From a virus (taxonomy: Duplodnaviria > Heunggongvirae > Uroviricota > Caudoviricetes): DNA of 64,000 nt. Where the stretch lies: the IMG/VR virus record IMGVR_UViG_3300028422_000873. One strand, 5' to 3'. This document shows positions 3,798-23,602 of the stretch, piece after piece. A program made the translations under genes and the position numbers. The first letter of the stretch is position 1. Each line of letters starts with the position of its first letter. The notes below the pieces were generated by a model that did not search any database, was not told where the DNA came from, and saw nothing but the letters and a program-made list of their open reading frames with translations.

Positions 3798-3883
3798 TGT
3801 GGGGTATGCAAGCGGTCAAAGCAGAGGGTTTCATAAGCCATCGACCTCGGTCTTCGTGGGTTCAAGTCCCACCCTCACAACCA
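3798..3883 (+). tRNA. tRNA-like gene with long variable arm, candidate CAU anticodon loop (TTCATAA), encoded CCA
   Basis: acceptor TGTGGGG/CCTCACA (one G-U); T-arm GTGGG-TTCAAGT-CCCAC; 3-bp D-stem; variable arm of about 14 nt; anticodon stem has one G-A mismatch. Confidence 0.45.
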
Positions 3884-5126: not shown

Positions 5127-5203
5127 CGCGGAGTGGCGCAGTTGGCTAGCGCGAAGGGTTCATAACCCTTAAGTCGGAGGTTCGAGTCCTCCCTCCGCCT
5201 CCA
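5127..5203 (+). tRNA. tRNA-Met (CAU), initiator-like
   Basis: full cloverleaf; anticodon stem AAGGG/CCCTT carries the three consecutive G-C pairs typical of initiators; loop TTCATAA; T-arm GGAGG-TTCGAGT-CCTCC; C1:C72 mismatch; encoded CCA. Confidence 0.8.
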
Positions 5204-8159: not shown

Positions 8160-9257
8160 ATGCAAGAATATAAAGGTCAGTACACAGACTGTAAGGTGTA
8201 TAGCGACTACGTCGAAGAAGAAGCTGTCAGACAGATATTCTCCTTCCTAAATTGTCCTGTGTTCGACGGTGAGACTATACGCGTGATGCCAGATGTACAT
8301 GCTGGATCAGGTGCTGTTATCGGCTTCACTTCTACTTTCACAGACAAGATAATACCTAATGTCATCGGCGTCGATATCGGCTGCGGTGTACTATCCTGTA
8401 ACTTCAAGACTGATGACCTAGACCTGCAGGCACTTGATAGGTTCATAAAGCAGAACATACCGAGCGGTTTCTCTATCAATAAAAAAGTAAGACCGGAGAT
8501 CAAGAAACCATTTCTAAAGTCGATACGTGACGTAGTTGCTGTGATCGGTGAGAAAGAGCCTGACAGAGATGCTAGGGCTATAGGTTCTCTCGGTGGTGGT
8601 AATCACTTCATAGAGATAGGTAGAGACGTTAATGATGAATCTTACTGGTTGACTATACACTCAGGCTCTAGAAACTTCGGACTACGTATCGCACAGCATC
8701 ACCAACGGATAGCAAAGAAACTTAATCCTTTCGGTGATCTTTCTTGGTTGGACGGTGATGAGGCTCAACTGTATATAGAGCATATGAAAGTGGCTCAGCA
8801 GTATGCCTCTCTAAATAGAGAACTTATGATGAAGAGTATAATCAAGCATCTCGGCGTGAAGGTAATCGACACGGTTGAGTCAGTGCATAACTACATCGAC
8901 TTCGACAACAACATAATCCGTAAAGGTGCTATATCTGCTCAAGAAGGAGAGAAGCTTATTATCCCATGGAACATGGAAGACGGACTTATAATCGGTGTTG
9001 GTAAGGGCAACACTGACTGGAACTGCTCTGCTCCTCATGGAGCTGGTCGTGTTCTGAGTCGTGGAAAAGCAAAGAGAACTCTATCCTTAGATGAGTTCAA
9101 AGAGCGTATGAAGGATGTATACTCATCTTGCGTTAGCGAGAATACACTCGATGAATCTCCTATGGCATATAAAAACTGCCAAGAGATCATCGAGTACATC
9201 GAACCAACGATTGAGATACTTCATACTATAAAACCGATCTATAACTTTAAGGCTTAA
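8160..9257 (+). CDS. rtcB: RtcB-family RNA-splicing ligase (3'-phosphate/5'-hydroxyl RNA ligase), compact 365-aa form
   Basis: GGGNHFIEIG and SAPHGAGRVLSRGKAKR motifs match the RtcB metal/GTP-binding signatures (GxGNHF, HGAGR). Confidence 0.7.
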   Translation: MQEYKGQYTDCKVYSDYVEEEAVRQIFSFLNCPVFDGETIRVMPDVHAGSGAVIGFTSTFTDKIIPNVIGVDIGCGVLSCNFKTDDLDLQALDRFIKQNIPSGFSINKKVRPEIKKPFLKSIRDVVAVIGEKEPDRDARAIGSLGGGNHFIEIGRDVNDESYWLTIHSGSRNFGLRIAQHHQRIAKKLNPFGDLSWLDGDEAQLYIEHMKVAQQYASLNRELMMKSIIKHLGVKVIDTVESVHNYIDFDNNIIRKGAISAQEGEKLIIPWNMEDGLIIGVGKGNTDWNCSAPHGAGRVLSRGKAKRTLSLDEFKERMKDVYSSCVSENTLDESPMAYKNCQEIIEYIEPTIEILHTIKPIYNFKA

Positions 9258-9284
9258 CCGATTCGATTTATTATTGATGAATAG
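9256..9284 (+). promoter_or_regulatory. conserved intergenic motif copy 1 (AACCGATTCGA plus TGATGAATAG)
   Basis: AACCGATTCGA at 9256-9266, TGATGAATAG 10 nt downstream; 30 nt upstream of the RBS of 9314..9877. Confidence 0.4.
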
Positions 9285-9313
9285 TAGTCTATTTTAAAAA
9301 AGAAGGAGTATCT

Positions 9314-9877
9314 ATGGATGATTATAAAGAAGTAGTGTTAAGCGGACAGGTCTTTAAAGTTAGATACAAGAAAGAGCAGGAACAATTAGAGGTTCATGAA
9401 GAGACCGACGATGAAAAAGCCGAGAAAGAACTTCTGGAAATCGATACTAAGAACAGGCATGTTCTCAACGATGTCATTAATGATATTCAAGACGATCTTA
9501 TCAGGGAGCTTAAGTACAACGCGAAATCTGCGCTATTAAGTGCTATCGGATTTAGTGACTCGTGGGGTAAATGGCAAGTAGATCATTGCAACGGACGTAT
9601 GGGTGAGATCGCAAAATATATCAAGCGTAATGTAGAAGATGTATTATCTGATCTATCAGTAACGGTTCCAACAATCACTCAAGAAGACGCAGATGAGCTT
9701 GGTAAGGCCATGAAGAAAGAATATATGATGCACTATAGTCGTCAATATAAAGACACTTTGGTAGCATTGGCAAAACAGCAAGCCAGTGAAGATACTCATG
9801 CATTGCTTAAAGAAGTTTTGGAACAAGAAAAAGAAGTTAGAGACGCAATCTTAAGTAAATTACTATGCGAAAAATAA
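9314..9877 (+). CDS. hypothetical protein
   Basis: AAGGAG RBS; 187 aa. Confidence 0.45.
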   Translation: MDDYKEVVLSGQVFKVRYKKEQEQLEVHEETDDEKAEKELLEIDTKNRHVLNDVINDIQDDLIRELKYNAKSALLSAIGFSDSWGKWQVDHCNGRMGEIAKYIKRNVEDVLSDLSVTVPTITQEDADELGKAMKKEYMMHYSRQYKDTLVALAKQQASEDTHALLKEVLEQEKEVRDAILSKLLCEK

Positions 9878-10155
9878 GATATGTCTACATTGTAGATACA
9901 GAACATTTTGATGGACCTGTTCTGAATCACGTAGAGGGTTTTTACTCTACTAAAAAAGAAATGTGTGGGGTACTCAGGGCTGTGGGTTTCAAGTACAACA
10001 GTGAGACCGGTGATTGGTACACGGGTAAAAGTATATATTATGGAGACTCATACGCGTACGTGAAGAGAATAGAGAGCGGCGTCGATAACTGGAAACAAGA
10101 GATAGAAGCTGGTATAAAACTAGTTTTATTTAAGTTTAAACTGTACAAATACTAG
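9865..10155 (+). CDS. hypothetical protein
   Basis: 96 aa; overlaps the upstream stop. Confidence 0.4.
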   Translation: MRKIRYVYIVDTEHFDGPVLNHVEGFYSTKKEMCGVLRAVGFKYNSETGDWYTGKSIYYGDSYAYVKRIESGVDNWKQEIEAGIKLVLFKFKLYKY

Positions 10156-10163
10156 GGAATAAA

Positions 10164-10583
10164 ATGAAGAGGGAAGACAAAGATATACTCGAGCGTAAAG
10201 AGAAACTCATGAACGAGGTTCTGGATAAGGTGGAGTCAGCTCTAAGAGAAAATCCAGAGAATCTAATATTTGCATTAGATAGTCGTCGTTCTCCGTATAT
10301 TCATTTTGGCGTTAAATTAGACAGCGGAGATAAGGCTTGTTTTTACGTAGATGACAATCATTTGTCGCTCACTATAGTTAATAACAATGTCGATCATACT
10401 TACAACATCATGTATTATTATAATACATGGATATCGTACCGTCATATTTTTAAACGTGCTACACGTGTCAAAGCGGCAGTGAAAAAATACAAAGACAACA
10501 AAGAGCAATACGATCTGCTCAACATGTTAGAAAGAAAAGTCGCAGACGTAGATAAAATATTACTCGGAGAGGAGGAAAAATGA
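10164..10583 (+). CDS. hypothetical protein
   Basis: 139 aa. Confidence 0.4.
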   Translation: MKREDKDILERKEKLMNEVLDKVESALRENPENLIFALDSRRSPYIHFGVKLDSGDKACFYVDDNHLSLTIVNNNVDHTYNIMYYYNTWISYRHIFKRATRVKAAVKKYKDNKEQYDLLNMLERKVADVDKILLGEEEK

Positions 10584-10876
10584 AGAATGCAGTTACATTA
10601 GAGTCTCTAAAAGCACAGGGATTCAAGGTTTTCTTAAAGCATACAAGGGAGGACAGTGGTCGTTACATTACTAGAGTCGCAGTGTATCATGAGGAAACCC
10701 ATCAGATCAGTCACGCAGCAGCCATCACACATCCAAATGATCAGTTCTCACGCAAGAAAGGCAGAACTATCGCTCTTGGTAGAGCGATGAACGAGAGAAC
10801 AAGAACACTAGTTGATACAGAGGGTTGGTCTCAAGAGAGATTAGACGAGTATATTAGGCAAGTAGTGTTCTCATAA
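10580..10876 (+). CDS. hypothetical protein
   Basis: GGAGGAGG RBS; 98 aa; ATGA start/stop overlap. Confidence 0.45.
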   Translation: MKNAVTLESLKAQGFKVFLKHTREDSGRYITRVAVYHEETHQISHAAAITHPNDQFSRKKGRTIALGRAMNERTRTLVDTEGWSQERLDEYIRQVVFS

Positions 10877-10890
10877 GTAGAGATATAAAA

Positions 10891-11142
10891 ATGAGCGACA
10901 ATAGTGTTGATATTTTAGCTAGAATATTAGGTTTCTATTATTCACTATTAGAAATAGATGAACCAATAAATAGAGAAACTGTCGCTCATTTTTATAATGA
11001 GTATCATGAAAAACGATTATTATGTAAGTTAGGTATTCATAACGTGGTTAATATAACTATTAGAATATATCATAGCGATATACATTACAGAGTATGCAAA
11101 CACTGTGGTAAAAATCATCCAGTGTTGACTGGGGAGTGGTAG
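10891..11142 (+). CDS. hypothetical protein with C-terminal CxxC...H zinc-ribbon-like motif
   Basis: VCKHCGKNHP. Confidence 0.4.
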   Translation: MSDNSVDILARILGFYYSLLEIDEPINRETVAHFYNEYHEKRLLCKLGIHNVVNITIRIYHSDIHYRVCKHCGKNHPVLTGEW

Positions 11143-11469
11143 ATGAGCAATCTAGCTTTACCAAAAGGTAAGAATGTAAAGAGACCCATTAGAGAACCAG
11201 ATCATTATTCTCATAGGGGTGTACCGTATTGGTGGGCTCCAGAGTGGGTTCGTGAGTCTAACGGTTCTATGGGAAGAATCAAAGCAGTAAAGAGCGGCAG
11301 CGATGTCGATCTATACATGTGTTCAAAATCCGGCAACCTAACCTATATTAGAGGAAGAATTCAGGAGGAGTTTCAACGTTGGCATCAGGACAATGAGATT
11401 GATTATATCCTGTTAGGTATCGACATCGATGAGGTTCTTCTATCTGACTGGGAGTACGACGATGAGTAA
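11143..11469 (+). CDS. hypothetical protein
   Basis: 108 aa; TAGATG abutting the upstream gene. Confidence 0.4.
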   Translation: MSNLALPKGKNVKRPIREPDHYSHRGVPYWWAPEWVRESNGSMGRIKAVKSGSDVDLYMCSKSGNLTYIRGRIQEEFQRWHQDNEIDYILLGIDIDEVLLSDWEYDDE

Positions 11470-11520
11470 ATCAAAAGAAAAAATATCTATGAGATTAGCA
11501 GTTACTTTGGTTGGTGGGGA

Positions 11521-11721
11521 ATGTATCAGACCGTTATCATCGAAGCATCATCATATAAAGAGGCAACAACTAATCTAAAAGATAAAGTAAAAGAAATATA
11601 TGAGGGACTAGGTAGAGGGCGTAATCAACAAGAGTTTTACTGTAAGGTTGTTGGTTACAGAGTTATAAAAGAAGTTAAACCTTTTATAGAGTTTAAGAAA
11701 CCTCAAGTTTTCAATGATTAG
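11521..11721 (+). CDS. hypothetical protein
   Basis: 66 aa; GGTGGGG RBS. Confidence 0.35.
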   Translation: MYQTVIIEASSYKEATTNLKDKVKEIYEGLGRGRNQQEFYCKVVGYRVIKEVKPFIEFKKPQVFND

Positions 11722-12082
11722 TCAAAATACCATGAGATTGCAAGAACACAGTATTAATAAAGCATGCTCTATCTTAAATAAAGGGGGATTTGTCTGTACA
11801 ACATCTTATACACATGCTATATACTACAAAAGAATTGATGGAACCATATGGATGTATCATTTTAAGTACGGATATAGAAAGTACTTTAATTCTATAAAAG
11901 ACCTTAAGAGATCTAACAAGGATATGACTTTTTATAGGTTGAAACGACAATTTAATCCTTATTTTAGAACAAGGTTCTGTTTTTATGAGGAAGCTTTTGA
12001 TAATAGGACTGTTAGAGGATACTGGTCATATCCTCATTATGGCTCATCAATGCGAACAAAAGTCTTAAAATTACCAACATGA
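11714..12082 (+). CDS. hypothetical aromatic-rich protein
   Basis: 122 aa; last gene before a roughly 680-bp non-coding AT-rich region. Confidence 0.4.
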   Translation: MISQNTMRLQEHSINKACSILNKGGFVCTTSYTHAIYYKRIDGTIWMYHFKYGYRKYFNSIKDLKRSNKDMTFYRLKRQFNPYFRTRFCFYEEAFDNRTVRGYWSYPHYGSSMRTKVLKLPT

Positions 12083-12762
12083 GTGCTGATACCCAGAAAA
12101 CATTAAACGATGATGTGTACAGATGTTGATATTTTTTCACCATGATGTTATATAGATTAGACGTAGCAGATATGCTCGTAACTGGACGACCAGTTGACAA
12201 CTTCATAAATAAATATTCTATGAAAGAGGATTAGTGTGAGACATGTACCTATTAAATGGACGCAGTATGAATCATGGTTTAATATACGAATCACAGTCCG
12301 TAAATTACTTAATATCAAATGGAAAGGCAGTCCTAATAAATTGATTACTTACTTTGAAAAATACAGGGCAGTGGGCGAAGATTAGACGTCTATAGGGGAT
12401 AAATGTATTCAAAAGATGTATATAGTTTGATACAATTAAACTCGCTTATTAAAATACGAATTACGTTTCGCAGATTATTAGGTATTGATTGGCTTACTCT
12501 CCCAAGCGCAATAGAAGGTTATTTAAAAAAATATTCAATAAAAAAATAATTTTTTCTGTGTTTAGCCTTTTGTATGGGTATAATCAAATCATGATGTTTT
12601 TAAATTCTATAAAACACATTCAAGAAACGATTATCGGCGGTTGGCAACCGGCGGCGGTCGGTCATGCAATCGGGATAGAGCCGAAAGGCCATCACGATAT
12701 CCAAGTGCAGCAGTAAGCACGGACAAAAAACACTGAAAAACTATTATTAAATTAAAATTAGA

Positions 12763-12841
12763 GGGCGATGGGACTGCAAGGGGTGGTCACCAGTTTTGCA
12801 ATCTGGAAATCAGCAGGGTTCGATTCCCTGATCGTCCACCA
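12763..12841 (+). tRNA. tRNA-Ala (UGC)
   Basis: acceptor GGGCGAT/ATCGTCC with the G3:U70 Ala identity pair; anticodon loop TTTGCAA; T-arm CAGGG-TTCGATT-CCCTG; CCA encoded. Confidence 0.7.
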
Positions 12842-12862
12842 AAAAGAGTAAGATATATGAAA

Positions 12863-12890
12863 AACCGATTCGAAAAAAGGGAGAAGTTAC
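12863..12890 (+). promoter_or_regulatory. conserved intergenic motif copy 2 (AACCGATTCGA) between tRNA-Ala and tRNA-Gln
   Basis: AACCGATTCGA at 12863-12873, about 40 nt upstream of the tRNA-Gln 5' end. Confidence 0.35.
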
Positions 12891-12913
12891 AGCAACAGGT
12901 TAAATAATTTAAT

Positions 12914-12989
12914 TGGCCTGTCATCTAAACGGTTAAGATACTGGACTTTGACTCCAGCAATCAGGGTTCGATTCCCTGCGGGTCTGCCA
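12914..12989 (+). tRNA. tRNA-Gln (UUG)
   Basis: anticodon arm CTGGA-CTTTGAC-TCCAG perfect; D-arm ATCT/AGAT with AAACGGTTA loop; T-arm CAGGG-TTCGATT-CCCTG; acceptor has a U1-U72 mismatch and two G-U pairs; CCA encoded. Confidence 0.65.
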
Positions 12990-12999
12990 GATATAAAAT

Positions 13000-13076
13000 G
13001 GGGCTGAAGATGAAGTGGTGGAATCACCGGCCTGTCACGCCGGAGGAAGTGGGTTCGACTCCCATCGGTCTCGCCA
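13000..13076 (+). tRNA. tRNA-Asp (GUC)
   Basis: anticodon arm CCGGC-CTGTCAC-GCCGG identical in form to bacterial tRNA-Asp; acceptor GGGGCTG/CGGTCTC (two G-U); T-loop TTCGACT; CCA encoded. Confidence 0.7.
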
Positions 13077-13122
13077 AGATAGTAGTTTTCTGAGGGTTCT
13101 ACTTATAAAAACTCTCTATTGT

Positions 13123-13199
13123 GTTGGCTGTAGTTTAGTTGGTTAAAACGCTAGGTTGTGACCCTGGCAACGCCGGTTCGAATCCGGTCGGCCACCCCA
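13123..13199 (+). tRNA. tRNA-His (GUG) with G-1
   Basis: anticodon arm CTAGG-TTGTGAC-CCTGG; D-arm GTTT-AGTTGGTTA-AAAC; extra 5' G opposite the C73 discriminator (His identity); T-loop TTCGAAT; CCA encoded. Confidence 0.65.
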
Positions 13200-13212
13200 A
13201 AAAGAAAGTAAT

Positions 13213-13286
13213 GCCGGTGTAAGCTAGTGGCAAACTGCCTGACTTCCAATCAGGACTCGAGAGTTCGATTCTCTCTACCGGCACCA
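13213..13286 (+). tRNA. tRNA-Gly (UCC)
   Basis: acceptor GCCGGTG/TACCGGC; anticodon arm CCTGA-CTTCCAA-TCAGG; T-arm GAGAG-TTCGATT-CTCTC; CCA encoded. Confidence 0.8.
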
Positions 13287-13450
13287 TAAATAAATAGGGA
13301 GGTTGAAGACCTGCTGAAAGACATTAAAGTAGTTTGATCGAGTAACAGACGCAAAGGCAATAAAAACCACAGAGCTGGAGGAAGGGTCCAGACAGGCTCT
13401 TTCAGATGAACAGATGGGTAATAAGCAGGGGATAAACCTTTCCAGCGTTA

Positions 13451-13535
13451 AAGACAGTAGCTCAGTCGGAAGAGTGCCGGCATTTGCATTTGCGTTTGGA
13501 GCCGGAGGTCGCGGGTTCGAGTCCCGCCTGTCATT
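13451..13535 (+). tRNA. aberrant tRNA / tRNA pseudogene with a 19-nt expanded anticodon loop (ATTTGC-ATTTGC-GTTTGG-A), no encoded CCA
   Basis: canonical D-arm (TAGCTCAGTCGGAAGAGT) and T-arm (GCGGG-TTCGAGT-CCCGC) and 5-bp anticodon stem CCGGC/GCCGG, but the loop between them is 19 nt built from three tandem TTTG(C/G) hexamers; acceptor AAGACAG/CTGTCAT has one mismatch. Confidence 0.4.
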
Positions 13536-13550
13536 AAAGCTATATATTAT

Positions 13551-13628
13551 CCGGGTGTAGCGCAGTCTGGTTAGCGCACTTGTTTTGGGAACAAGGGGTC
13601 GAAGGTTCAAATCCTTCCATCCGGACCA
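13551..13628 (+). tRNA. tRNA-Pro (UGG)
   Basis: acceptor CCGGGTG/CATCCGG; D-arm GCGC-AGTCTGGTTA-GCGC; anticodon arm CTTGT-TTTGGGA-ACAAG; T-loop TTCAAAT; CCA encoded. Confidence 0.75.
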
Positions 13629-13638
13629 TAAATTTTGT

Positions 13639-13713
13639 GGAGCGTTCGTCTAGTGGTCTAGGATGCCAGACCTTCAATCTGGTCACACGGGTTCAAATCC
13701 GTACGCTCTCCCA
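13639..13713 (+). tRNA. tRNA-Glu (UUC), with C33 and a slightly irregular T-arm
   Basis: acceptor GGAGCGT/ACGCTCT; D-loop AGTGGTCTA; anticodon arm CCAGA-CCTTCAA-TCTGG; CCA encoded; T-arm one nt short of canonical. Confidence 0.55.
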
Positions 13714-13723
13714 ATATAATAGT

Positions 13724-13801
13724 GGTTGGGTAACATAGTCGGTTTAATGTACCGGACTTTTAATCCGGGTTACGTGGGTTCGAGTCCCACCCCATCCACC
13801 A
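13724..13801 (+). tRNA. tRNA-Lys (UUU)
   Basis: anticodon arm CCGGA-CTTTTAA-TCCGG; D-arm ACAT/ATGT; T-arm GTGGG-TTCGAGT-CCCAC; one 3:70 mismatch; CCA encoded. Confidence 0.75.
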
Positions 13802-13807
13802 CTTAAT

Positions 13808-13882
13808 GGTCGCGTAGTTCAACGGTAAGAACTCCAGTCTGATATACTGGCAACAAAGGTTCGACTCCTTTCGCGACTACCA
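13808..13882 (+). tRNA. tRNA-Ile (GAU)
   Basis: acceptor GGTCGCG/CGCGACT; D-arm GTTC-AACGGTAA-GAAC; anticodon arm CCAGT-CTGATAT-ACTGG; T-loop TTCGACT; CCA encoded; starts 6 nt after tRNA-Lys. Confidence 0.8.
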
Positions 13883-13893
13883 TTTTTTACAAT

Positions 13894-13966
13894 ACCCGGT
13901 TAGCTGGGGGATTATCGCCGTCCTTACAAGTCGGAGACGTTGGTTCGATTCCAACACCGGGTACCA
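13894..13966 (+). tRNA. tRNA-Val (UAC)
   Basis: perfect acceptor ACCCGGT/ACCGGGT; anticodon loop CTTACAA as in bacterial tRNA-Val(UAC); T-arm GTTGG-TTCGATT-CCAAC; CCA encoded. Confidence 0.75.
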
Positions 13967-13971
13967 TATAT

Positions 13972-14047
13972 GCTCCTGTGGTGCAATGGTCTAGCATGAG
14001 GTCCTTATAAGCCTTAGATTCAGGTTCGATTCCTGGCAGGAGTACCA
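13972..14047 (+). tRNA. tRNA with UAU anticodon loop (CTTATAA), candidate AUA-reading tRNA-Ile2
   Basis: acceptor GCTCCTG/CAGGAGT (G1-U72); D-arm GTGC-AATGGTCTA-GCAT; T-arm TCAGG-TTCGATT-CCTGG; anticodon stem has one U-C mismatch; CCA encoded. Confidence 0.55.
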
Positions 14048-14051
14048 TTAA

Positions 14052-14127
14052 GCTGGCATAGTTAAATGTGTTATAGCACTAGCTTTGTAACCTAGTATTC
14101 TCAGTTCGATTCTGAGTGCCAGCTCCA
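14052..14127 (+). tRNA. tRNA-Thr (UGU)
   Basis: perfect acceptor GCTGGCA/TGCCAGC; anticodon loop TTTGTAA; T-arm CTCAG-TTCGATT-CTGAG; CCA encoded; starts 4 nt after the previous tRNA. Confidence 0.7.
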
Positions 14128-14184
14128 TTTAAGAATTATATAGTATAAAAGATTCCAAAGGAGAAATAAATTGAATCTAAAATA

Positions 14185-14324
14185 TGCACAAAGTGCAATG
14201 AAACTAAACCAATTGAAGAATTTTCTTGGAAGATAGAGCATGGTCTATAGAACATATATTAGAAGAGATAGCTAAATGCGAGGTGTTATATGCTAACTGT
14301 CATGCGGAAGAGCATGAGAAATAA
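14185..14324 (+). pseudogene. decayed HNH endonuclease remnant (frameshifted) inside the tRNA array
   Basis: frame 1 encodes CTKCNETKPIEEFSWKIEHGL*, then the -1 frame continues WSIEHILEEIAKCEVLYANCHAEEHEK*; CxxC...H...NCH..EH is the HNH zinc-finger/catalytic layout; duplicated WKIEH/WSIEH segment marks the frameshift. Confidence 0.4.
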
Positions 14325-14330
14325 GTATTA

Positions 14331-14406
14331 AGGGTGTCTAGTATAACGGTAGTACTGCAGCCTCCAAAACTGCACAGTGAGGGTTCGAATCCTTCGGCGC
14401 CTGCCA
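14331..14406 (+). tRNA. tRNA-Trp (CCA) with poorly paired acceptor stem
   Basis: anticodon loop CTCCAAA and 3' end ...CCT-G-CCA resemble bacterial tRNA-Trp; D-arm AGTA-TAACGGTAG-TACT; T-arm GAGGG-TTCGAAT-CCTTC; acceptor AGGGTGT/GGCGCCT pairs only 4 of 7. Confidence 0.5.
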
Positions 14407-16332: not shown

Positions 16333-16965
16333 ATGAAAAGAGCATGTACTATATGGTTTACCTCAGATTTACACTTCGGACATAAGAGTGTAAAGGATTT
16401 TCAACCTGATAGACCTGGTAACACCGTAAGTGAACACGATGAGGCACTCATCAGAAACTGGAATAAAAACATTGGTCCAGCCGATACCGTTATTGTTCTG
16501 GGCGATGTATTCTTCAGTGGATCGACGTATGCGCGCTCTATAATGAATAGATTAAACGGAAACAAGATACGCGTGAGAGGAAACCACGATAGTTGGTCTC
16601 ACACTCAAGCTATAGCGAGTGGCTTTTCTTTCTCATGTGATTATCTGGAAATGACTATAGCTGGTCAAAAAGTAATACTAAGTCATTATCCTTATAGATA
16701 TACATTCTGGCAAGAAGTTAAAGCCTTTATAAAAAATCCATTTCGTAAGAAACCTCGTTATTCAGAACGTAGACCGAGAAACGAGGGTGAGTGGTTATTG
16801 CACGGTCATACACACTCTTATAAGATACTCAGAAACAAGATGATACATGTTGGAGTAGACGCTTGGAACTATCGTCCGGTACATATATCACATATTGAGA
16901 ACATTATTCAGACTGGAAAACTACCTAAAAATTTACCTAAACAGATTCGAGATAGACAAAGATAG
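16333..16965 (+). CDS. calcineurin-like metallophosphoesterase
   Basis: start at MKRAC (GGAG RBS); motifs DLHFGH, GDVFFSG, RGNHD, GHTH. Confidence 0.65.
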   Translation: MKRACTIWFTSDLHFGHKSVKDFQPDRPGNTVSEHDEALIRNWNKNIGPADTVIVLGDVFFSGSTYARSIMNRLNGNKIRVRGNHDSWSHTQAIASGFSFSCDYLEMTIAGQKVILSHYPYRYTFWQEVKAFIKNPFRKKPRYSERRPRNEGEWLLHGHTHSYKILRNKMIHVGVDAWNYRPVHISHIENIIQTGKLPKNLPKQIRDRQR

Positions 16966-18162: not shown

Positions 18163-18804
18163 ATGGAGATTCAGAAAAAAGAAGAATCAAAGAAAAGAAA
18201 GAGAAGACCATATGCAGTGGTTCTTGACTACGATGATACATGTGTAGATTTCATCGGTTTCTTATGTACTCTACATAATCATTTACATGGGACCTGCATG
18301 ACGCGCCGCGATGTTGTAAACTGGTGTTTTAGTGATATCGATATGAAAGATGCGAGAGGGCATACCGTAACAGGTGCAGAATTCAACAGCACATTCAAAG
18401 AATGGGAAAACGACGGATTATATGCATCGTTGCCAGCACTGAAAGATGCTAGAAGAGCAATTGATCTAATGAAAACACTGGGTTACAAGGTTATTATATT
18501 AACAGCTAGAGATGAGAAGTATCGTAAACAGACAGAACTTAATGCTATGCATCAGCATTTAAAGTATGATGAATTACACTTCTCAAATGATAAAGTTAAG
18601 ACCATTCGTGAATTAAGTAAGGTCTATAACATAAAGATGTTTGCTGATGATAAGGCATCTACAGTTATATCTATTGCTGAGAAATGTAAAGTAAAACACG
18701 TTTTCTTGATTGATCAAGAGCATAACTCTGATATAGATGATGATGACATCGTAAGAGTTAAAGATATTATGGAGACGATACGTTATCTCCCGGATGTGTC
18801 TTAA
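18163..18804 (+). CDS. 5'(3')-deoxyribonucleotidase (NT5C family, HAD superfamily)
   Basis: VVLDYDDTCVDF is the HAD DxDx(T/V) motif I in NT5C-like context; ILTAR and FADDKAS downstream motifs. Confidence 0.5.
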   Translation: MEIQKKEESKKRKRRPYAVVLDYDDTCVDFIGFLCTLHNHLHGTCMTRRDVVNWCFSDIDMKDARGHTVTGAEFNSTFKEWENDGLYASLPALKDARRAIDLMKTLGYKVIILTARDEKYRKQTELNAMHQHLKYDELHFSNDKVKTIRELSKVYNIKMFADDKASTVISIAEKCKVKHVFLIDQEHNSDIDDDDIVRVKDIMETIRYLPDVS

Positions 18805-18971
18805 CAGTGAAAGAGTACTCAAGAGAAAATATAGACTTCGAACACGCTTGTCAGTGTGTTTTTGATCTATTAAGGATGATGAGTCGTCTAGATATAGATA
18901 TTTCTAATATTTGGCTTTCTTCGTTTTATATTGATCTTTATGTGTGTTACCACATGACTACGTAAAATCTT

Positions 18972-19002
18972 AACCGATTCGAAATTTTATTGTGATAATA
19001 TA
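18972..19002 (+). promoter_or_regulatory. conserved intergenic motif copy 4 (AACCGATTCGA plus TGTGATAATAT)
   Basis: AACCGATTCGA at 18972-18982; extended -10-like TGTGATAATAT 10 nt downstream; upstream of 19035..19766. Confidence 0.45.
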
Positions 19003-19034
19003 TAAACTTATACGAATCAGTTATCGGAGGAATA

Positions 19035-19766
19035 ATGTTTACAGATAGCGTTTATCAAAATATGGATGAGATATCGCAACTAGTAGAACCTTTTCAATGT
19101 AAGTTCAATGCGGAATTAGCTAAATTACCAGAAGAAATTCAAATCACATATGAGATCTTAGAGAAACATGCGAGATTCCATAGCGGCTCATACGGCATTT
19201 CCTCTTTCCCTGTGGATAGTATTATAGTATTGACATGCCGTGAGGTCGGTGCAAATTACGAGATTCTAAAAGATAGGCGCTATATAGATTATAATGAAGA
19301 TCTATATAAGATATGGATTGAACAAGATGCAACGATAGATTTTGAGAAAAAGACTTTAGCCGGCGACATTAAATTAATTAAGGCAAAAGAGGCTTTAACA
19401 GATGAAGAATTATATAGTAAAGTAATTAATAACTTAGATGGTACACTATACAGTACCATGTATAAAGCTTCAAATGTATCTAAGGCTAACGTCAATGAGA
19501 TAGCTGAAATATTTGATATTGAGGGTGTTAATAAAGTAAAAAGCATTAGAGATAAAAAGAACACCCTGATAAAAGGCTTATTATCGCAGTTTGAAGATCG
19601 TAAGATAAATATACGCGATTTGGAATTAGGTTTTCGCTTTGCAGATTGGATAAAGGCATATCTATGTCGCGGTAACTTAGCTGCTATTAAAAATCTAACA
19701 TTATTTAAGGTGATGATGTTAAACGGTCTGCCGATCTATAGTTTAGATAATGAGGAGCCATTATAA
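19035..19766 (+). CDS. hypothetical protein
   Basis: 243 aa; CGGAGG RBS. Confidence 0.45.
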   Translation: MFTDSVYQNMDEISQLVEPFQCKFNAELAKLPEEIQITYEILEKHARFHSGSYGISSFPVDSIIVLTCREVGANYEILKDRRYIDYNEDLYKIWIEQDATIDFEKKTLAGDIKLIKAKEALTDEELYSKVINNLDGTLYSTMYKASNVSKANVNEIAEIFDIEGVNKVKSIRDKKNTLIKGLLSQFEDRKINIRDLELGFRFADWIKAYLCRGNLAAIKNLTLFKVMMLNGLPIYSLDNEEPL

Positions 19767-20263
19767 TGGATAATCTTAAAACACTTAAAGAGAAGATATC
19801 ACAGTTAAAACCCAGTGATTCTATTTTCCACATTATTAAAGGATGGGGTGACGAACTTAGGTTTGTAAAACTCGGTGTGGAAGAGAATTCTTCTCTCATA
19901 ACAATGGACGATTTCATAAAATATAGATTCTCAGAGTTTTTTAATGGAAACACCATGAGATTCGAGATTGATGAAGAGAAGATATATAATAATGTCATAT
20001 ATGATTATAAACGTGAATTCTTTAGAGTCTTCGATTTAGTGTGTCCAGCTAAGAAACCAAGACAAACTAAGTTTTTTAAAGAATTTGATTCATTCTATAA
20101 TAATATTGTTTATAGTGATAACAGTGGAGATGAGTTAAACAATACCGTGATATCTTTGGTTAATTATTTTAATGCAAACAAAGACAGTATGAATCCAGAT
20201 ACAGTTCATGGTAAAAACATGTACAATCTTCTTCGAGCTTTAATTAAGAAATATAGAAAATAG
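19766..20263 (+). CDS. hypothetical protein
   Basis: 165 aa; TAATGG start/stop overlap. Confidence 0.45.
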   Translation: MDNLKTLKEKISQLKPSDSIFHIIKGWGDELRFVKLGVEENSSLITMDDFIKYRFSEFFNGNTMRFEIDEEKIYNNVIYDYKREFFRVFDLVCPAKKPRQTKFFKEFDSFYNNIVYSDNSGDELNNTVISLVNYFNANKDSMNPDTVHGKNMYNLLRALIKKYRK

Positions 20264-20271
20264 GAGAACAT

Positions 20272-20652
20272 ATGGCGACAAAAACAAGAACAAACAGGGT
20301 CGTTACCAACGAGGACATTGAGAAGTATGACCCCATGATCGAATCATGGTTGCGCAAATCAGTAATTAAAAACTGGAATGAGGCAGATATGGGGAAACAA
20401 AATGGAGAAATATCTTTAGGTAACTCAGGTTACACGATGAATGACATACGTCAGCATCTTAGATGCGAGGTATTGATTGCACTAAAGAACTACGATCCGT
20501 CGCGTAAAGCAAAAGAGAGTACTTTTGTATATGGACATCTCTATAATCGCATCGGACAACTGATGAAAAAATTAACAGGTAAGTCTATGGGGTATGGTGT
20601 ATGGACTAATAACCTCGAAGAAGTATTACAAGAGATAAATATAGACGATTAA
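20272..20652 (+). CDS. gp55-like late-transcription sigma factor (candidate)
   Basis: 126 aa; pattern ...IESWLRKSVIKNW...ISLGNSGYT...EVLIALKNYDPSRK...FVYGHLYNRIGQLMKKL parallels T4 gp55 (...IIDWKTEL...IGLAIML...FNFSGYT...GLHNFDETK...FNAFVQRIKK). Confidence 0.45.
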   Translation: MATKTRTNRVVTNEDIEKYDPMIESWLRKSVIKNWNEADMGKQNGEISLGNSGYTMNDIRQHLRCEVLIALKNYDPSRKAKESTFVYGHLYNRIGQLMKKLTGKSMGYGVWTNNLEEVLQEINIDD

Positions 20653-20777
20653 GAGGTATCTATGTTGAGAATATTTAAAAAGACAGCAGTAGCAATTAAG
20701 ATGCATGTATTTATCTTTATAATGGGGACTATCTGGGTTGATAAAAAATACAATGCTAATTATACAGAGAGATATTA

Positions 20778-21137
20778 ATGAGATTTCTGTTATTAGCAAT
20801 TTTATTACTATGTGGTTGTAGTAAAAATCAAGATATTGCAGATAAAAAGATTTACAATGATCTTAAACCACCTACAAAACACAATGTAAAAACTAATCTA
20901 TTTAGGGTGGGTGACTGTATTATTCATCATCTTGACCTAGAAAACCTTCAAAAAGATATGAATGAATGGGAAAGAGAACCCGTCTTATACTATAAAATAA
21001 CAAAAGTTGGTAAAGTAAAGTATGGCGTACTTGCTTTCGTAACTGACATGAAAAAACCAACACAGGGTCTTCAGCGAATAACCTGGTTAACTAAAAAAGA
21101 CTATCTATTAACTAAGTGCCCTGAGGAGTTACAATGA
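20778..21137 (+). CDS. putative lipoprotein
   Basis: signal peptide with lipobox LLLCGCS. Confidence 0.45.
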   Translation: MRFLLLAILLLCGCSKNQDIADKKIYNDLKPPTKHNVKTNLFRVGDCIIHHLDLENLQKDMNEWEREPVLYYKITKVGKVKYGVLAFVTDMKKPTQGLQRITWLTKKDYLLTKCPEELQ

Positions 21138-21688
21138 ACGTCGTAGTACTATTAGGTCCTCCTGGTTCTGGTAAATCTACTCATGCTAAGTTGTTAGCTA
21201 AGAATATCCCATCGTGTTCTTGGATGTCTATGGGTGATTTACTGCGTGATGAGATAGAATCTGGTAGTGAGATAGGTGAACAAATACAGCGTACAGTGGC
21301 AAACGGCGAACTAGTGCCAAATGATGTATGTTATAAGCTACTTGAACCGTTCTTTCTTAGTTCGTTGCGCGACACGTTTATAATAGATGGTTTTCCAAGA
21401 AGTCTTAATCAAGTTTCGATATTAGATGATTTCTGTATAAAACCTATTATCATAGAGATAAACTGTACTTACGAAATAGTACTTGACAGATTAACGCGCA
21501 GGTGCCGTGACGACGATACAGAAACTGTGATAAAACACAGATACGATGTATATACTTCTGATACTACAGAGGCGATAAAGAAAATGCGCAAAAAGTATAA
21601 AGTATATAAGGTATACGGCGGAGATGACATAGATGTCATTCATGAAAAAATACGCAAGATAATAGAGGAGAACAATGAAGATATATAA
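21134..21688 (+). CDS. nucleoside monophosphate kinase (adenylate/cytidylate kinase fold)
   Basis: P-loop GPPGSGKST; NMP-binding GDLLRDE; LID/CORE GFPRSLNQ; overlaps the upstream and downstream genes by 4 and 14 nt. Confidence 0.6.
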   Translation: MNVVVLLGPPGSGKSTHAKLLAKNIPSCSWMSMGDLLRDEIESGSEIGEQIQRTVANGELVPNDVCYKLLEPFFLSSLRDTFIIDGFPRSLNQVSILDDFCIKPIIIEINCTYEIVLDRLTRRCRDDDTETVIKHRYDVYTSDTTEAIKKMRKKYKVYKVYGGDDIDVIHEKIRKIIEENNEDI

Positions 21689-22493
21689 TAACATTCACGA
21701 CGCTTATTTAGGTACTTTAGCAGATGTATATGATAATCCTGAGTTTGAGTGTGCACCCAGAGGCCAGAAGATTAAAGAGTGTTTGGATTATCAATTTCGT
21801 GTACTGTGTCCAGAGGTAACTCCTATAATCACAAAAGATGAAGAAAGAAACAAAATTATAGCAGAATATACTGCTAAAGAAACAGCATTATACGACTCAT
21901 GCAGTAATAATGTTGAAGATTTTGCTAAAGCAAGTTCATTCTGGAGAAAAATAGCCAACAACGATGGCACTATTAACTCTGCATACGGCTATCTAATATG
22001 GAAAAATAATTCTTGCGGTGATCCTCTTCAAGAGCTGTCTTTTATAGATGATAGTGGGATTAATCCCAGAGTTATGGTTTTAAACTCGCTTACACAGACT
22101 GGTATGAAAGCCCACAGAGAATGTAAACGCACACCATGGGAATGGTGTGTTCAATCATTAAAGGCTGATAAAGATACAAGGCAGGCTCATTTAAAATTTA
22201 GTCTACCAGAGCATCTATGGATAGGTAACAAGGATCAAGTTTGCACATTACATGCTAACTTTCTGATACGTGATGATAAGTTGAATATGTCTGTAGTAAT
22301 GAGATCAAATGATCTTATGTTGGGTCTAGTATATGACCTACCTTGGTTTGTGAGCCTAATGGATAAGATGATCGATGAATTAAAAAGAGATTACCCAAGT
22401 CTAACAAAGGGACACTACACTCATACAGTTCACAGTATGCATATTTATGAACGCGATGAAGAAAAAGTCATGAAGATGCTTGGGAGAGTTTAA
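21675..22493 (+). CDS. thymidylate-synthase-family pyrimidine C5 transferase; Asp at the ThyA Asn177 position suggests a dCMP hydroxymethylase-like enzyme
   Basis: catalytic Cys context VCTLHANF (ThyA PCHALFQF); MRSNDLMLGLVYDLPWF aligns to ThyA QRSADVFLGVPFNIASY with N replaced by D, as in T4 dCMP hydroxymethylase. Confidence 0.6.
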   Translation: MKIYNNIHDAYLGTLADVYDNPEFECAPRGQKIKECLDYQFRVLCPEVTPIITKDEERNKIIAEYTAKETALYDSCSNNVEDFAKASSFWRKIANNDGTINSAYGYLIWKNNSCGDPLQELSFIDDSGINPRVMVLNSLTQTGMKAHRECKRTPWEWCVQSLKADKDTRQAHLKFSLPEHLWIGNKDQVCTLHANFLIRDDKLNMSVVMRSNDLMLGLVYDLPWFVSLMDKMIDELKRDYPSLTKGHYTHTVHSMHIYERDEEKVMKMLGRV

Positions 22494-22903
22494 TGGCCAT
22501 GATTTTTAGTGGAGTAACTATAACTACTACTGGAACTAGTGGTTTAACAACAGAAGAGTATAGCGAGCTGCATGAATTAAGACATGAGCATGAAAATAAA
22601 ATTAAAGATGAGAGACTCCGATTATTTAAAGAATTACCATCAAAGCTACGACAGAAAATAGTTGATAAAGTAATACTTAATAAACTTATAAGAGATATGA
22701 GGAATGTCACGGTAGAGAAAAATGAACGACATAAAGAGTTAAGCAACAGAGCTAATCCTGCATATATCATAGGGGATCATACTGTTTCCTGGGATGCATC
22801 TGCATTTAGAGATAATATTAATGAATTACTTAAATGGTTTACAGAAGAAGAGTTAATAAATGCTCACAATGACGCTTGTGCAGAAGAAATATTATCAACA
22901 TAG
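22493..22903 (+). CDS. hypothetical protein
   Basis: 136 aa; ATGG overlap with the upstream stop. Confidence 0.4.
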   Translation: MAMIFSGVTITTTGTSGLTTEEYSELHELRHEHENKIKDERLRLFKELPSKLRQKIVDKVILNKLIRDMRNVTVEKNERHKELSNRANPAYIIGDHTVSWDASAFRDNINELLKWFTEEELINAHNDACAEEILST

Positions 22904-22911
22904 GAGGGAAT

Positions 22912-23535
22912 ATGGGATGTGATATTCACATGTATGGCGAATATCGTATGGGGAAAGGTGATACATGGAAATTATTACCTGAACATAAATTAGAAATCGA
23001 AGAATACGGAACTCCTGGAGAAGAGGATTACGAGCGATATGAACATATAAAAGAAATAGGCGGTAGCAGAAGCTACTCCCTATTTGGTCTACTAAGTAAT
23101 GTTCGATGCGATGGTCAGATGATAGAAGATAGGGGTTTCCCGGAAAATGCTTCTCCAGAGGTTAGAGCTCAAAAAGAACGTGATGGAATTGACGGTCATT
23201 CACATAATCATGTATCATTAGAAGATTTCAAGAGGGTCATGGAGGAACATAGTAAACTAGTAGAAAAAGAAAATGAATTTTACATAAAAGAGTTCAAAGA
23301 AATGCATGATAGAGGAATTATTACAGAAGAACAATACGAAAGAAGATTACGTATGTTCTCCATAAGAGAAGAGAAAAAACCCATATATGAAAATCCTTTC
23401 AAGAGTTATCAATGGCATAATGTTGTACCATATCTGGAACAATTCATAAAAGATAATACTGTTAATGTCCCAGAAGTAAATGGCTTACTAGATGCGATTC
23501 CAGAAGTTAGACTTGTTTTCTGGTACGACAACTAG
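22912..23535 (+). CDS. hypothetical protein
   Basis: start at MGCDIHM after GGAGGG RBS; 207 aa. Confidence 0.4.
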   Translation: MGCDIHMYGEYRMGKGDTWKLLPEHKLEIEEYGTPGEEDYERYEHIKEIGGSRSYSLFGLLSNVRCDGQMIEDRGFPENASPEVRAQKERDGIDGHSHNHVSLEDFKRVMEEHSKLVEKENEFYIKEFKEMHDRGIITEEQYERRLRMFSIREEKKPIYENPFKSYQWHNVVPYLEQFIKDNTVNVPEVNGLLDAIPEVRLVFWYDN

Positions 23536-23571
23536 AAAAACTACATGAAGAACACTATTTACTAGATACAT

Positions 23572-23602
23572 AAACCGATTCGATTAATATGCATGATAGA
23601 TA
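23572..23602 (+). promoter_or_regulatory. conserved intergenic motif copy 5 (AACCGATTCGA plus TGATAGATAT)
   Basis: AACCGATTCGA at 23572-23582; TGATAGATAT 10 nt downstream; upstream of 23619..24026. Confidence 0.45.

What the first reader, a model, noticed from the sequence alone, without database searches (positions are those of the whole stretch)
8160..14406. RtcB RNA ligase next to a 16-gene tRNA complement: candidate tRNA repair and supply module
The phage encodes a compact RtcB (GxGNHF and HGAGR motifs intact), which seals 2',3'-cyclic-phosphate/5'-OH breaks, a few kb upstream of a dense tRNA array. Two metallophosphoesterases (16333..16965, 36565..38205) and P-loop kinase-like domains fused to two homing endonucleases are also present. 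T4 counters host anticodon nucleases with Pnk plus Rnl1. An RtcB-based route would be a different enzymatic answer to the same problem. The tRNA set (Ala, Gln, Asp, His, Gly, Pro, Glu, Lys, Ile x2, Val, Thr, Trp, Met) is rich in isoacceptors that PrrC-, colicin- or RloC-type nucleases target and that AT-rich codon usage demands.
Basis: partly seen in the sequence, partly recalled or inferred. Interest (0 to 1): 0.7.

Follow-up and report, generated by a model that had tools for sequence, protein, structure and literature searches.

The report
Phage RtcB ligase beside tRNA array
An uncultured large phage carries an intact RtcB RNA-sealing enzyme among its tRNA genes, an arrangement already seen and explained the same way in other phages, but one of its "tRNA genes" belongs to a conserved structured RNA that no curated family describes.

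Summary
ORF 8160..9257 is a real RtcB: Pfam E 1.6e-63, all metal and nucleophile residues kept, and a predicted fold that matches solved RtcB structures. ARAGORN tRNAs, 14 in the array 12763..14406 and 2 upstream of the stated range.

RtcB homologues occur in 706 deposited phage genomes. The idea that phage RtcB reseals tRNAs cut by host nucleases was published in 2011, 2017 and 2021. Listeria P100-like phages have the same tRNA array, RtcB and small phosphoesterase layout.

The linkage is frequent but not obligate. About 5 of 14 sampled RtcB lineages have 6 or more tRNAs within 10 kb. The phosphoesterases and P-loop domains showed no link to RNA repair, and the window holds no Pnkp or Rnl.

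One result was unexpected. The "second tRNA-Ala" (13450..13536) has no encoded CCA, a 19-nt "anticodon" loop and an extended acceptor helix. It is the 3' domain of a roughly 200-nt RNA (13342..13541) found in tRNA arrays of 11 phage lineages, including jumbo phages. Three helices covary, and a conserved 5' block pairs with the loop. Rfam 15 has no family for it, and it is not tied to RtcB.

The parts
8160..9257 (+). RtcB RNA ligase (3'-phosphate or 2',3'-cyclic phosphate joined to 5'-OH), 365 aa, of the short phage-associated subfamily
   Evidence: PF01139 at E 1.6e-63. Catalytic residues are invariant. AF2 model has pLDDT 95.4. Foldseek matches human RTCB 8odp at E 2.8e-24 with TMq 0.78, and P. 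horikoshii RtcB 4dwq.
9314..9877 (+). 187-aa ORF of unknown function, next to RtcB in both related phages
   Evidence: 47% identical homologue directly upstream of RtcB in L003. No Pfam, PHROG or NCBIfam hit.
3798..3883 (+). 86-nt tRNA(CAU) with a long variable arm and a Tyr-like body
   Evidence: ARAGORN and Rfam at 40.4 bits. Conserved in L003 with compensatory changes.
5127..5203 (+). tRNA(CAU), initiator-like
   Evidence: ARAGORN and Rfam. It has a 1:72 mismatch and three G-C pairs at the bottom of the anticodon stem. The initiator assignment is an inference from known initiator features.
12591..12716 (+). Conserved 41-aa ORF just upstream of the array
   Evidence: Conserved in L003, where the differences include synonymous third-position changes.
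12763..13286 (+). tRNA genes Ala(UGC), Gln(UUG), Asp(GUC), His(GUG) and Gly(UCC), all with encoded CCA
   Evidence: ARAGORN. Rfam confirms all but Ala. The Ala gene is conserved in L003.
13342..13541 (+). Structured RNA with a tRNA-like 3' domain. This is the ARAGORN 'tRNA-Ala' at 13450..13536. It consists of a 5' block, a hairpin, a variable region, and a four-way junction with a 19-nt 'anticodon' loop that pairs with the 5' block.
13551..14127 (+). tRNA genes Pro(UGG), Glu(UUC), Lys(UUU), Ile(GAU), Val(UAC), Ile(UAU) and Thr(UGU), all with encoded CCA
   Evidence: ARAGORN and Rfam.
14170..14325 (+). Degraded HNH homing-endonuclease remnant inside the array
   Evidence: Three-frame translation shows HNH-like motifs broken by stops and a frameshift.
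14332..14406 (+). tRNA-Trp(CCA)
   Evidence: ARAGORN and Rfam.
16333..16965 (+). Small calcineurin-type phosphoesterase. It recurs near RtcB in some phages. Its role is unknown.
   Evidence: PF00149 and PF12850. phrog_547 at E 1.1e-51. Homologue of Aquifex aq_1665, PDB 1xm7. A homologue lies 3.6 kb downstream of RtcB in a Listeria phage.

Best explanation
The region is part of the early or accessory arm of an uncultured large phage. A collection record of a 100%-identical RtcB lists its longest contig as 166.6 kb, and the capsid is about 31% identical to SPO1-like Herelleviridae. This arm combines a stand-alone RtcB ligase with a set of phage tRNA genes.

Shown: RtcB is intact and predicted active. 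At least 15 canonical tRNAs with encoded CCA lie on the same strand within 5 kb on either side of it. They carry U34 or G34 anticodons that fit the phage's A/T-ending codon preference.

Inferred from RtcB biochemistry: His293 is guanylylated with GTP and Mn2+. The enzyme opens a 2',3'-cyclic phosphate to a 3'-phosphate, activates it as RNA(3')pp(5')G, and the 5'-OH attacks to restore the phosphodiester. One protein can therefore reverse cuts made by metal-independent RNases such as the PrrC/RloC HEPN type, the colicin E5/D type and the MazF type. Cuts that leave 5'-phosphate and 3'-OH ends cannot be repaired this way.

The tRNAs most likely top up or replace host tRNAs, for codon supply or for replacing depleted species. 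RtcB and the tRNAs are best seen as two independent tools of one translation-protection strategy that often sit in the same genome arm. They are not a dedicated co-regulated module.

The array also encodes a conserved tRNA-mimic RNA of unknown function.
For: - RtcB identity, active site and fold.
- tRNAs.
- Codon usage: A/T-ending codons are preferred, ATA makes up 37% of Ile codons and is matched by tRNA-Ile(UAU), and the window's tRNAs read about 53% of codons.
- Synteny: the closest relative (L003, 77% identical RtcB) keeps RtcB between two tRNA clusters.
- Co-location: RtcB lies inside or beside arrays of 6-26 tRNAs in L004, L006, L015 (Listeria P100-like) and L020.
- Prior literature gives the same interpretation: PMC3203893, PMC5648845, PMC7824862.
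Against: - No experiment on any phage RtcB turned up in the papers searched.
- About 9 of 14 sampled RtcB lineages have 0-2 tRNAs within 10 kb. These include mycobacteriophage Adephagia, Bacillus Goe8, Enterococcus EFGrNG and Bacteroides BI-TP1.
- Promoter and terminator scans give no operon evidence.
- Both gene classes tend to sit in accessory arms, which by itself inflates co-location.
- The host is unknown, so neither the codon-supply test nor the nuclease-target test can be run.
- RtcB enzymes also repair rRNA (PMC9304027, PMC9223846), so tRNA need not be the substrate.
Confidence: 0.55

Rival explanations
1. RtcB is a general RNA-damage ligase, for example for rRNA or mRNA cut by ribotoxins or toxin-antitoxin RNases. 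It may also cap DNA 3'-phosphate ends. Its position near tRNA genes only reflects the clustering of accessory genes in one genome arm.
For: Most sampled RtcB-bearing phage lineages have no nearby array. Bacterial RtcB paralogues repair 16S rRNA (PMC9304027 and PMC9223846, listed). No operon signal was found.
Against: RtcB is embedded directly among tRNA genes in several unrelated lineages: L006 has tRNAs on both sides within 0.3 kb, and L003 and L004 have them within 0.5-0.8 kb. A whole clade keeps tRNA-Cys 0.4-0.7 kb downstream of RtcB.
Confidence: 0.3
2. RtcB acts on the unusual tRNA-like RNA at 13342..13541. It would splice out the extra 12 nt of the 19-nt 'anticodon' loop after endonuclease cuts, or reseal a decoy.
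For: With introns allowed, ARAGORN scores the element higher as a tRNA with a 12-nt insert (110.7 against 106.2). RtcB is the tRNA-splicing ligase of archaea and animals. Both phages of this lineage carry both features.
Against: - No bulge-helix-bulge motif is present, and no splicing endonuclease was found.
- The residual 'anticodon' is not conserved between the window and L003 (UUG against UUU).
- The loop core is invariant and pairs with the 5' block. The acceptor helix is extended and no CCA is encoded.
- The RNA occurs in 9 other lineages whose loci show no RtcB.
- It is absent from other RtcB-bearing arrays.
Confidence: 0.04
3. The tRNA genes serve only codon-usage compensation for an AT-rich phage, with no defence-evasion role, and RtcB is unrelated to them.
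For: Anticodons are all U34, G34 or single-codon types that match the preferred A/T-ending codons. tRNA-Ile(UAU) matches heavy ATA use.
Against: This cannot be tested without the host's tRNA pool. Recent work shows that phage tRNAs also replace tRNAs depleted by defence systems (PMC10264068; PMC11555353, listed).
Confidence: 0.25

Closest known systems
RtcB plus tRNA array of Listeria P100/A511-like Herelleviridae (e.g. Listeria phage 20422-1, PP101685)
   Same: A tRNA array (18 annotated, 17 by ARAGORN) lies 3.5-9 kb from an RtcB of about 400 aa that is 43% identical. A small phosphoesterase homologous to 16333..16965 lies 3.6 kb downstream. All are on one strand in the accessory arm.
   Different: The order is array, then RtcB, then phosphoesterase. 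In the window, tRNAs lie on both sides of RtcB. There is no copy of the tRNA-like RNA. The capsid is only about 31% identical, so the virus lineage differs.
T4 Pnkp + Rnl1 tRNA repair against PrrC
   Same: The proposed biological role is the same: restoring tRNAs cut in the anticodon loop, which leaves 2',3'-cP and 5'-OH ends.
   Different: T4 heals the ends with a kinase-phosphatase and seals them with an ATP-dependent ligase. RtcB seals directly using GTP. The window has no Rnl or Pnkp homologue. The relative L003 carries an additional Rnl-type ligase, PF09414.
Cellular RtcB (E. coli rtcBA operon; PrfH-linked RtcB2; archaeal and human tRNA-splicing ligase)
   Same: Same Pfam family, fold and catalytic residues.
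   Different: It scores below the NCBIfam equivalog cut-offs for the E. coli type (125 against 407 bits) and the PrfH-linked type (88 against 272 bits). It is shorter than the archaeal and human enzymes (365 against 481-505 aa). No RtcA, RtcR, archease or PrfH partner was detected nearby.
tRNA-mimic RNAs (bacterial YrlA Y-RNA-like RNAs; mascRNA). T4 stable RNA species 1 and 2 in the tRNA cluster are cited from my own knowledge.
   Same: For the RNA at 13342..13541: it has D-arm and T-arm mimicry and no decoding anticodon. Like the T4 stable RNAs, it is encoded inside a phage tRNA cluster.
   Different: The YrlA match is spurious (26.6 against 69 bits) and is built from the arms of two neighbouring genes. 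The strand topology is that of a normal tRNA and is not permuted. It has a specific conserved 5' block, a hairpin and a loop pseudoknot. No Ro/Rsr gene was seen.

Membership tests
RtcB RNA ligase (PF01139) | Significant match to the family profile over the whole domain | tested here: met
   E 1.6e-63 and 215.8 bits against a cut-off of 27, covering profile positions 14-425 of 426. phrog_1075 at E 5.7e-128.
RtcB RNA ligase (PF01139) | Metal ligands Asp/Cys/His and the Asn-His of the GxGNHF motif | tested here: met
   D72, C75, N148, H149, H167 and H243 are present. They align to P. horikoshii D95, C98, N202 and H203 and are at least 97% invariant in 114 homologues.
RtcB RNA ligase (PF01139) | Nucleophilic His that is guanylylated (HGAGR motif) | tested here: met
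   H293 in PHGAGR aligns to P. horikoshii H404.
RtcB RNA ligase (PF01139) | RtcB fold | tested here: met
   AF2 pLDDT 95.4 and pTM 0.92. Foldseek places 8odp, 4dwq and 1uc2 at E 1e-22 to 1e-24 with TMq 0.74-0.79. The next non-RtcB hit has E 0.05.
RtcB RNA ligase (PF01139) | GTP/Mn2+-dependent joining of 3'-P or 2',3'-cP ends to 5'-OH ends | not testable with these tools
   Needs a biochemical assay.
E. coli-type RtcB (NCBIfam PRK09588 equivalog) or PrfH-linked RtcB2 (TIGR03073) | Score above the curated equivalog cut-off | tested here: not met
   125.4 against 407 bits, and 87.8 against 271.8 bits.
T4-type heal-and-seal pathway (Pnkp + Rnl1/Rnl2) | Polynucleotide kinase-phosphatase and ATP-dependent RNA ligase genes | tested here: not met
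   - The L003 ligase has no homologue in the window.
- No RNA_ligase family hit appeared among the roughly 50 ORFs scanned.
- The HAD protein at 18163..18804 gives only weak hits: phrog_415 at E 5.6e-7 and Pnkp1 (4xrp) at E 0.12.
- The P-loop domains of the endonucleases match no kinase family above cut-off.
Functional RtcB-tRNA module (co-inherited unit) | RtcB consistently co-located with tRNA arrays in phages that carry it | tested here: inconclusive
   About 5 of 14 sampled lineages have 6 or more tRNAs within 10 kb, and 9 have 0-2. The sample is small, and genome-arm bias was not controlled.
Canonical tRNA (for the call at 13450..13536) | 7-nt anticodon loop, a 7-bp acceptor stem with free ends, and CCA (encoded in all 15 other tRNAs here) | tested here: not met
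   The loop is 19 nt. No CCA is encoded. There is an A.A mismatch at 2:71. The acceptor helix extends to about 13 bp, and to 12-20 bp in relatives.
tmRNA / YrlA / any Rfam 15 family (for 13342..13541) | Match at or near the gathering score; G3:U70 for tmRNA | tested here: not met
   Only 'tRNA' matches the 3' domain (48 bits in the window, 32 bits in L041). YrlA scores 26.6 against 69 bits and SpF41 scores 26 against 52 bits, both below threshold and explained by the tRNA-like arms. Pair 3:70 is G-C in the window and A-U in L003. ARAGORN calls no tmRNA.

The most novel reading that the evidence does not exclude
The gene counted as a second tRNA-Ala is the 3' domain of a phage RNA class that no curated family describes. 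The RNA is about 200-260 nt and was found only inside tRNA arrays of diverse large and jumbo phages.

It forms a tRNA-like four-way junction with D/T elbow features. Its 'anticodon' loop carries an invariant GCAYUUGCGUU core, which is locked by a 12-14-bp pseudoknot to a conserved 5' block (AACGCAAAGGC-N2-UAAAAAC). A covarying hairpin with a 7-nt loop follows the block.

The most novel reading the evidence allows is that it is a tRNA mimic working in the same tRNA-centred conflict as the tRNA genes and RtcB. It could act as a decoy or sponge for tRNA-targeting nucleases, or for tRNA-processing or tRNA-modifying enzymes.
Probability: 0.3. Interest if true: 0.75.

Novelty: new member of a known kind. 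Interest (0 to 1): 0.4.

Why it matters
As submitted, the finding adds one more uncultured phage to the several hundred known to encode RtcB. It repeats a hypothesis that is 15 years old and still untested. Its value is as a comparative data point. RtcB sits inside tRNA arrays in several unrelated lineages, but most sampled RtcB-bearing lineages lack a nearby array, which argues against a fixed module.

The more useful outcome concerns automatic tRNA callers. In phage arrays they can hide a conserved structured RNA that is not a tRNA. That RNA is present in jumbo phages, covaries in three helices and has no Rfam family. It is a concrete target for RNA-seq, structure probing and pull-downs in any culturable phage that carries it.

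Tried and rejected
- **Close relatives.** A near-DNA search of deposited phages found only a tRNA-Pro match. An exact-protein lookup of the window's RtcB found nothing. RtcB scans of IMG/VR, metagenome and genome collections returned only relatives at 41-45% identity and no host clue. The only close relative is L003, with a 77% identical RtcB.
- **Operon structure.** Promoter and terminator scans were not above chance in any useful way.
- **Y RNA or tmRNA reading of the odd tRNA.** The YrlA hit is built from the T arm of one gene and the D arm of the next. There is no G3:U70 and no tmRNA call. The SpF41 hit reflects only tRNA-likeness.
- **Structured RNA upstream of tRNA-Ala (12600..12765).** The apparent compensatory changes are synonymous codon changes in a conserved 41-aa ORF.
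- **One-off slippage pseudogene.** This was my first reading of the 19-nt loop. It was rejected once homologues with compensatory changes were found.
- **Pnkp-like role for the HAD protein or the P-loop domains.** No significant support was found.
- **False pattern hits.** L039 and L043 are ordinary tRNA-Pro genes. L033, L035, L037 and L038 match only the 5' block weakly.
- **Literature.** Searches found no description of the RNA.

Full report
**1. Observation**

The ORF at 8160..9257 (+) encodes a 365-aa protein. It matches Pfam RtcB (PF01139) at E 1.6e-63 across almost the whole profile. It also matches the phage family phrog_1075 'tRNA splicing ligase' at E 5.7e-128.

A residue-by-residue alignment to P. 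horikoshii RtcB pairs D45/H47 with D65/H67. It pairs D72/C75 with D95/C98, N148/H149 with N202/H203, and H293 of PHGAGR with the guanylylated H404. These residues, together with H167 and H243, are at least 97% invariant in 114 homologues of 359-410 aa.

An AlphaFold model built on 43 homologues has mean pLDDT 95.4. Its only significant PDB neighbours are RtcB structures: human RTCB at E 2.8e-24 with TMq 0.78, and P. horikoshii RtcB. The enzyme is therefore real and predicted active.

The enzyme is 'compact' only by comparison with the archaeal and human proteins. The median length of its closest 114 homologues is 376 aa. It scores below the NCBIfam equivalog cut-offs for the E. coli type and the PrfH-linked type.

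ARAGORN finds 16 tRNA genes in the window and Rfam confirms 15. Fourteen lie in the array 12763..14406. The two CAU tRNAs lie upstream of RtcB, at 3798..3883 and 5127..5203, outside the reported range. Fifteen of the sixteen encode their CCA end.

**2. The phage and its relatives**

No deposited phage resembles the region at the DNA level. The major capsid protein is about 31% identical to those of SPO1-like Herelleviridae. The window also holds a portal, a terminase, a large DNA polymerase, RecA, an SbcD-like nuclease and homing endonucleases.

The collection holds a 100%-identical RtcB record whose longest contig is 166.6 kb. The only close relative (77% identical RtcB) sits on a 137-kb contig of an NCBI metagenome assembly, L003. 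Gene order between the two is conserved. In L003, RtcB lies between two tRNA clusters, with 19 tRNAs in 21 kb. L003 also carries a PTH2 peptidyl-tRNA hydrolase, an Rnl-type RNA ligase and an FtsH-like protease. The window has none of these.

**3. Is RtcB tied to tRNA arrays?**

RtcB homologues occur in 706 deposited phage records. I counted tRNAs within about 10 kb of RtcB in roughly 14 lineages.

| Lineage | tRNAs near RtcB |
|---|---|
| Window | 16 calls |
| L003 (same lineage as the window) | 19 |
| L004 | 18 |
| L006 | 26 |
| Listeria phage 20422-1 (L015) | 17 |
| L020 | 6 |
| L005 / L023 | 0 |
| Bacillus Goe8 (L007) | 0 |
| Enterococcus EFGrNG (L016) | 0 |
| Bacteroides BI-TP1 (L017) | 0 |
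| Mycobacterium Adephagia (L018) | 0 |
| L021 | 0 |
| Stenotrophomonas ANB28 (L019) | 1 |
| L022 | 1 |
| Clade L001/L002/L008/L010/L012 | 1-2 |

In the last clade, a tRNA-Cys lies 0.4-0.7 kb downstream of RtcB.

Co-location is therefore common, in about 5 of 14 lineages, and sometimes intimate, but it is not obligate. Both gene classes favour accessory arms, so the excess over chance is only suggestive. The Listeria phage shows the same layout, including a homologue of the small phosphoesterase at 16333..16965. Promoter and terminator scans give no operon evidence.

**4. Side claims**

- The ORF at 16333..16965 is a calcineurin-type phosphoesterase. It matches phrog_547 and is homologous to Aquifex aq_1665. 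Its function is unknown.
- The ORF at 36565..38244 is on the minus strand. It matches only the T5 A1-like 'DNA transfer protein' family.
- A third phosphoesterase, at 53473..54483, is SbcD-like.
- The GIY-YIG endonuclease (39232..40428) and the EndoVII-like endonuclease (44923..46011) share a C-terminal Walker-A domain: 31% identity, E 6e-12. No kinase family reaches its cut-off.
- The HAD protein at 18163..18804 has only weak similarity to polynucleotide kinase-phosphatases. It sits in a nucleotide-metabolism block.

None of these features supports an RNA end-healing function, and RtcB does not need one.

**5. Mechanism and prior knowledge**

RtcB chemistry comes from established biochemistry (Tanaka and Shuman 2011, as cited in the papers read here). 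It lets one protein reseal breaks with 2',3'-cyclic-phosphate or 3'-phosphate and 5'-OH ends. Metal-independent tRNases leave exactly these ends.

The phage's codon usage prefers A/T-ending codons. ATA makes up 37% of Ile codons and is matched by tRNA-Ile(UAU). The window's tRNAs read about 53% of all codons.

The 'repair and supply' reading is therefore reasonable, but it is not new.
- Pope et al. 2011 proposed that phage RtcB protects against host tRNA cleavage, because only the tRNA-bearing cluster K1 phages encode it (PMC3203893).
- The Lacusarx paper placed rtcB in the tRNA region as 'likely involved in tRNA repair'. It also noted that relatives keep it elsewhere (PMC5648845).
- Iyer et al. 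2021 describe phage tRNAs as 'supplemented' by RtcB and ATP-grasp ligases (PMC7824862).

No experimental test of a phage RtcB turned up in the literature searches.

**6. The unexpected part: one 'tRNA' is not a tRNA**

The call at 13450..13536 ('Ala', 87 nt) lacks an encoded CCA and has an A.A mismatch in its acceptor stem. A perfect 5-bp stem (CCGGC/GCCGG) closes a 19-nt loop. Rfam's tRNA model aligns it only with a 16-nt loop insertion.

L003 holds a homologue that ARAGORN does not call. Relative to the window it has compensatory changes in the acceptor stem (two), the anticodon-like stem (one) and the T stem (one).

The conservation extends about 110 nt upstream. It covers a 5' block (AGACGCAAAGGCAAUAAAAACC) and a hairpin (CUGGA-GGAAGGG-UCCAG) followed by ACAGGC. 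The loop core GCAUUUGCGUUU is complementary to the 5' block. RNAalifold prefers that long-range helix. The pairs that flank the invariant core covary: AA/UU in the window, UU/AA in L003, and UAU/AUA in L027 and L030.

Pattern scans of IMG/VR found further members on contigs of 13 to 490 kb. Together with the window and L003, this makes 11 distinct lineages. Every copy lies inside a tRNA array, on the same strand as the tRNAs.

In most members the acceptor-like helix extends to 12-20 bp, so free tRNA ends are unlikely.

Covariation supports three helices.
- In the hairpin, all five pairs change on both sides. Cells are 98% paired, against 64% in shuffles and 18-40% when the partner is slid.
- In the anticodon-like and T stems, eight of ten pairs change on both sides. 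Cells are 97% paired, against 71% in shuffles.

One caveat applies. The strands for one search were extracted by hand, which favours pairing.

No Rfam 15 family matches beyond 'tRNA' for the 3' domain. A covariance model of the 5' module finds all known members at 48-79 bits. It finds no copy in the other RtcB-bearing arrays. None of the IMG/VR loci that carry the RNA shows RtcB in its 1-14 kb.

The RNA is therefore associated with tRNA arrays and not with RtcB. Its function is unknown. A tRNA-mimic role, as a decoy or sponge, is a hypothesis only.

**7. Verdict**

The finding is real but ordinary as framed. It is a new member of a known kind, and the mechanistic reading matches published speculation.

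The count of '16 tRNAs' should read 15 tRNAs plus one tRNA-like domain of a larger conserved RNA. That RNA is the item most worth further work.

Noticed in passing
window 13342..13541 (+); also L003 19165..19372, L027 10186..10365, L030, L031, L032, L034, L036, L040, L041/L042, L044: Conserved structured RNA inside phage tRNA arrays. It has a 5' block, a covarying hairpin, a variable region and a tRNA-like four-way junction whose enlarged loop pairs with the 5' block. No Rfam family matches it. ARAGORN miscalls it as tRNA-Ala in the window and in L044.
   Followed up: yes
window 3798..3883 (+); L003 4491..4576: 86-nt tRNA with a CAU anticodon, a long variable arm and a Tyr-like D loop. It is conserved between the two phages with compensatory changes. 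A type-II body is unusual for a Met or Ile2 tRNA.
   Followed up: partly
window 12763..12841 (+); L003 17967..18045: 79-nt tRNA-Ala(UGC) with G3:U70 but an atypical D arm and a 9-nt variable region. Rfam's gathering threshold misses it, yet it is conserved with compensatory changes.
   Followed up: partly
window 12591..12716 (+): 41-aa ORF (MMFLNSIKHIQETIIGGWQPAAVGHAIGIEPKGHHDIQVQQ) directly upstream of the array. It is conserved in L003, where the differences include synonymous changes, and is preceded by a conserved TATAAT.
   Followed up: partly
window about 14170..14325 (+): Broken HNH homing-endonuclease remnant between tRNA-Thr and tRNA-Trp. The relative L003 has an intact Endonuclease_7 gene inside its array.
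   Followed up: partly
window 39232..40428 (-) and 44923..46011 (-): Two different homing-endonuclease types (GIY-YIG and EndoVII-like) share a C-terminal Walker-A domain of about 130 aa (31% identity) that fits no curated family.
   Followed up: partly
L001, L002, L008, L010, L012: A clade of RtcB genes (41-45% identical) is always followed 0.4-0.7 kb downstream by tRNA-Cys(GCA), sometimes also by a tRNA(CAU).
   Followed up: no
L027 435..508 and 12366..12441; L029 2680..2755; L031 7045..7119: Arrays that carry the new RNA also encode tRNAs with a CUA anticodon (amber-suppressor type). This hints at stop-codon recoding in those phages.
   Followed up: no
window 18163..25351 (+): Nucleotide-metabolism block: a HAD phosphatase, an adenylate-kinase-like NMP kinase, a divergent thymidylate-synthase homologue and a weak Thy1-like protein. 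This may point to modified DNA bases, as in SPO1-like phages.
   Followed up: no
window 16333..16965 (+); L015 14763..15380; L005 19128..19775; L023 20370..21017: A small phosphoesterase of about 200 aa (phrog_547 in the window copy) recurs 2-10 kb from RtcB in several phage lineages. It is also seen on the P0009 contig. Its role is unknown.
   Followed up: partly
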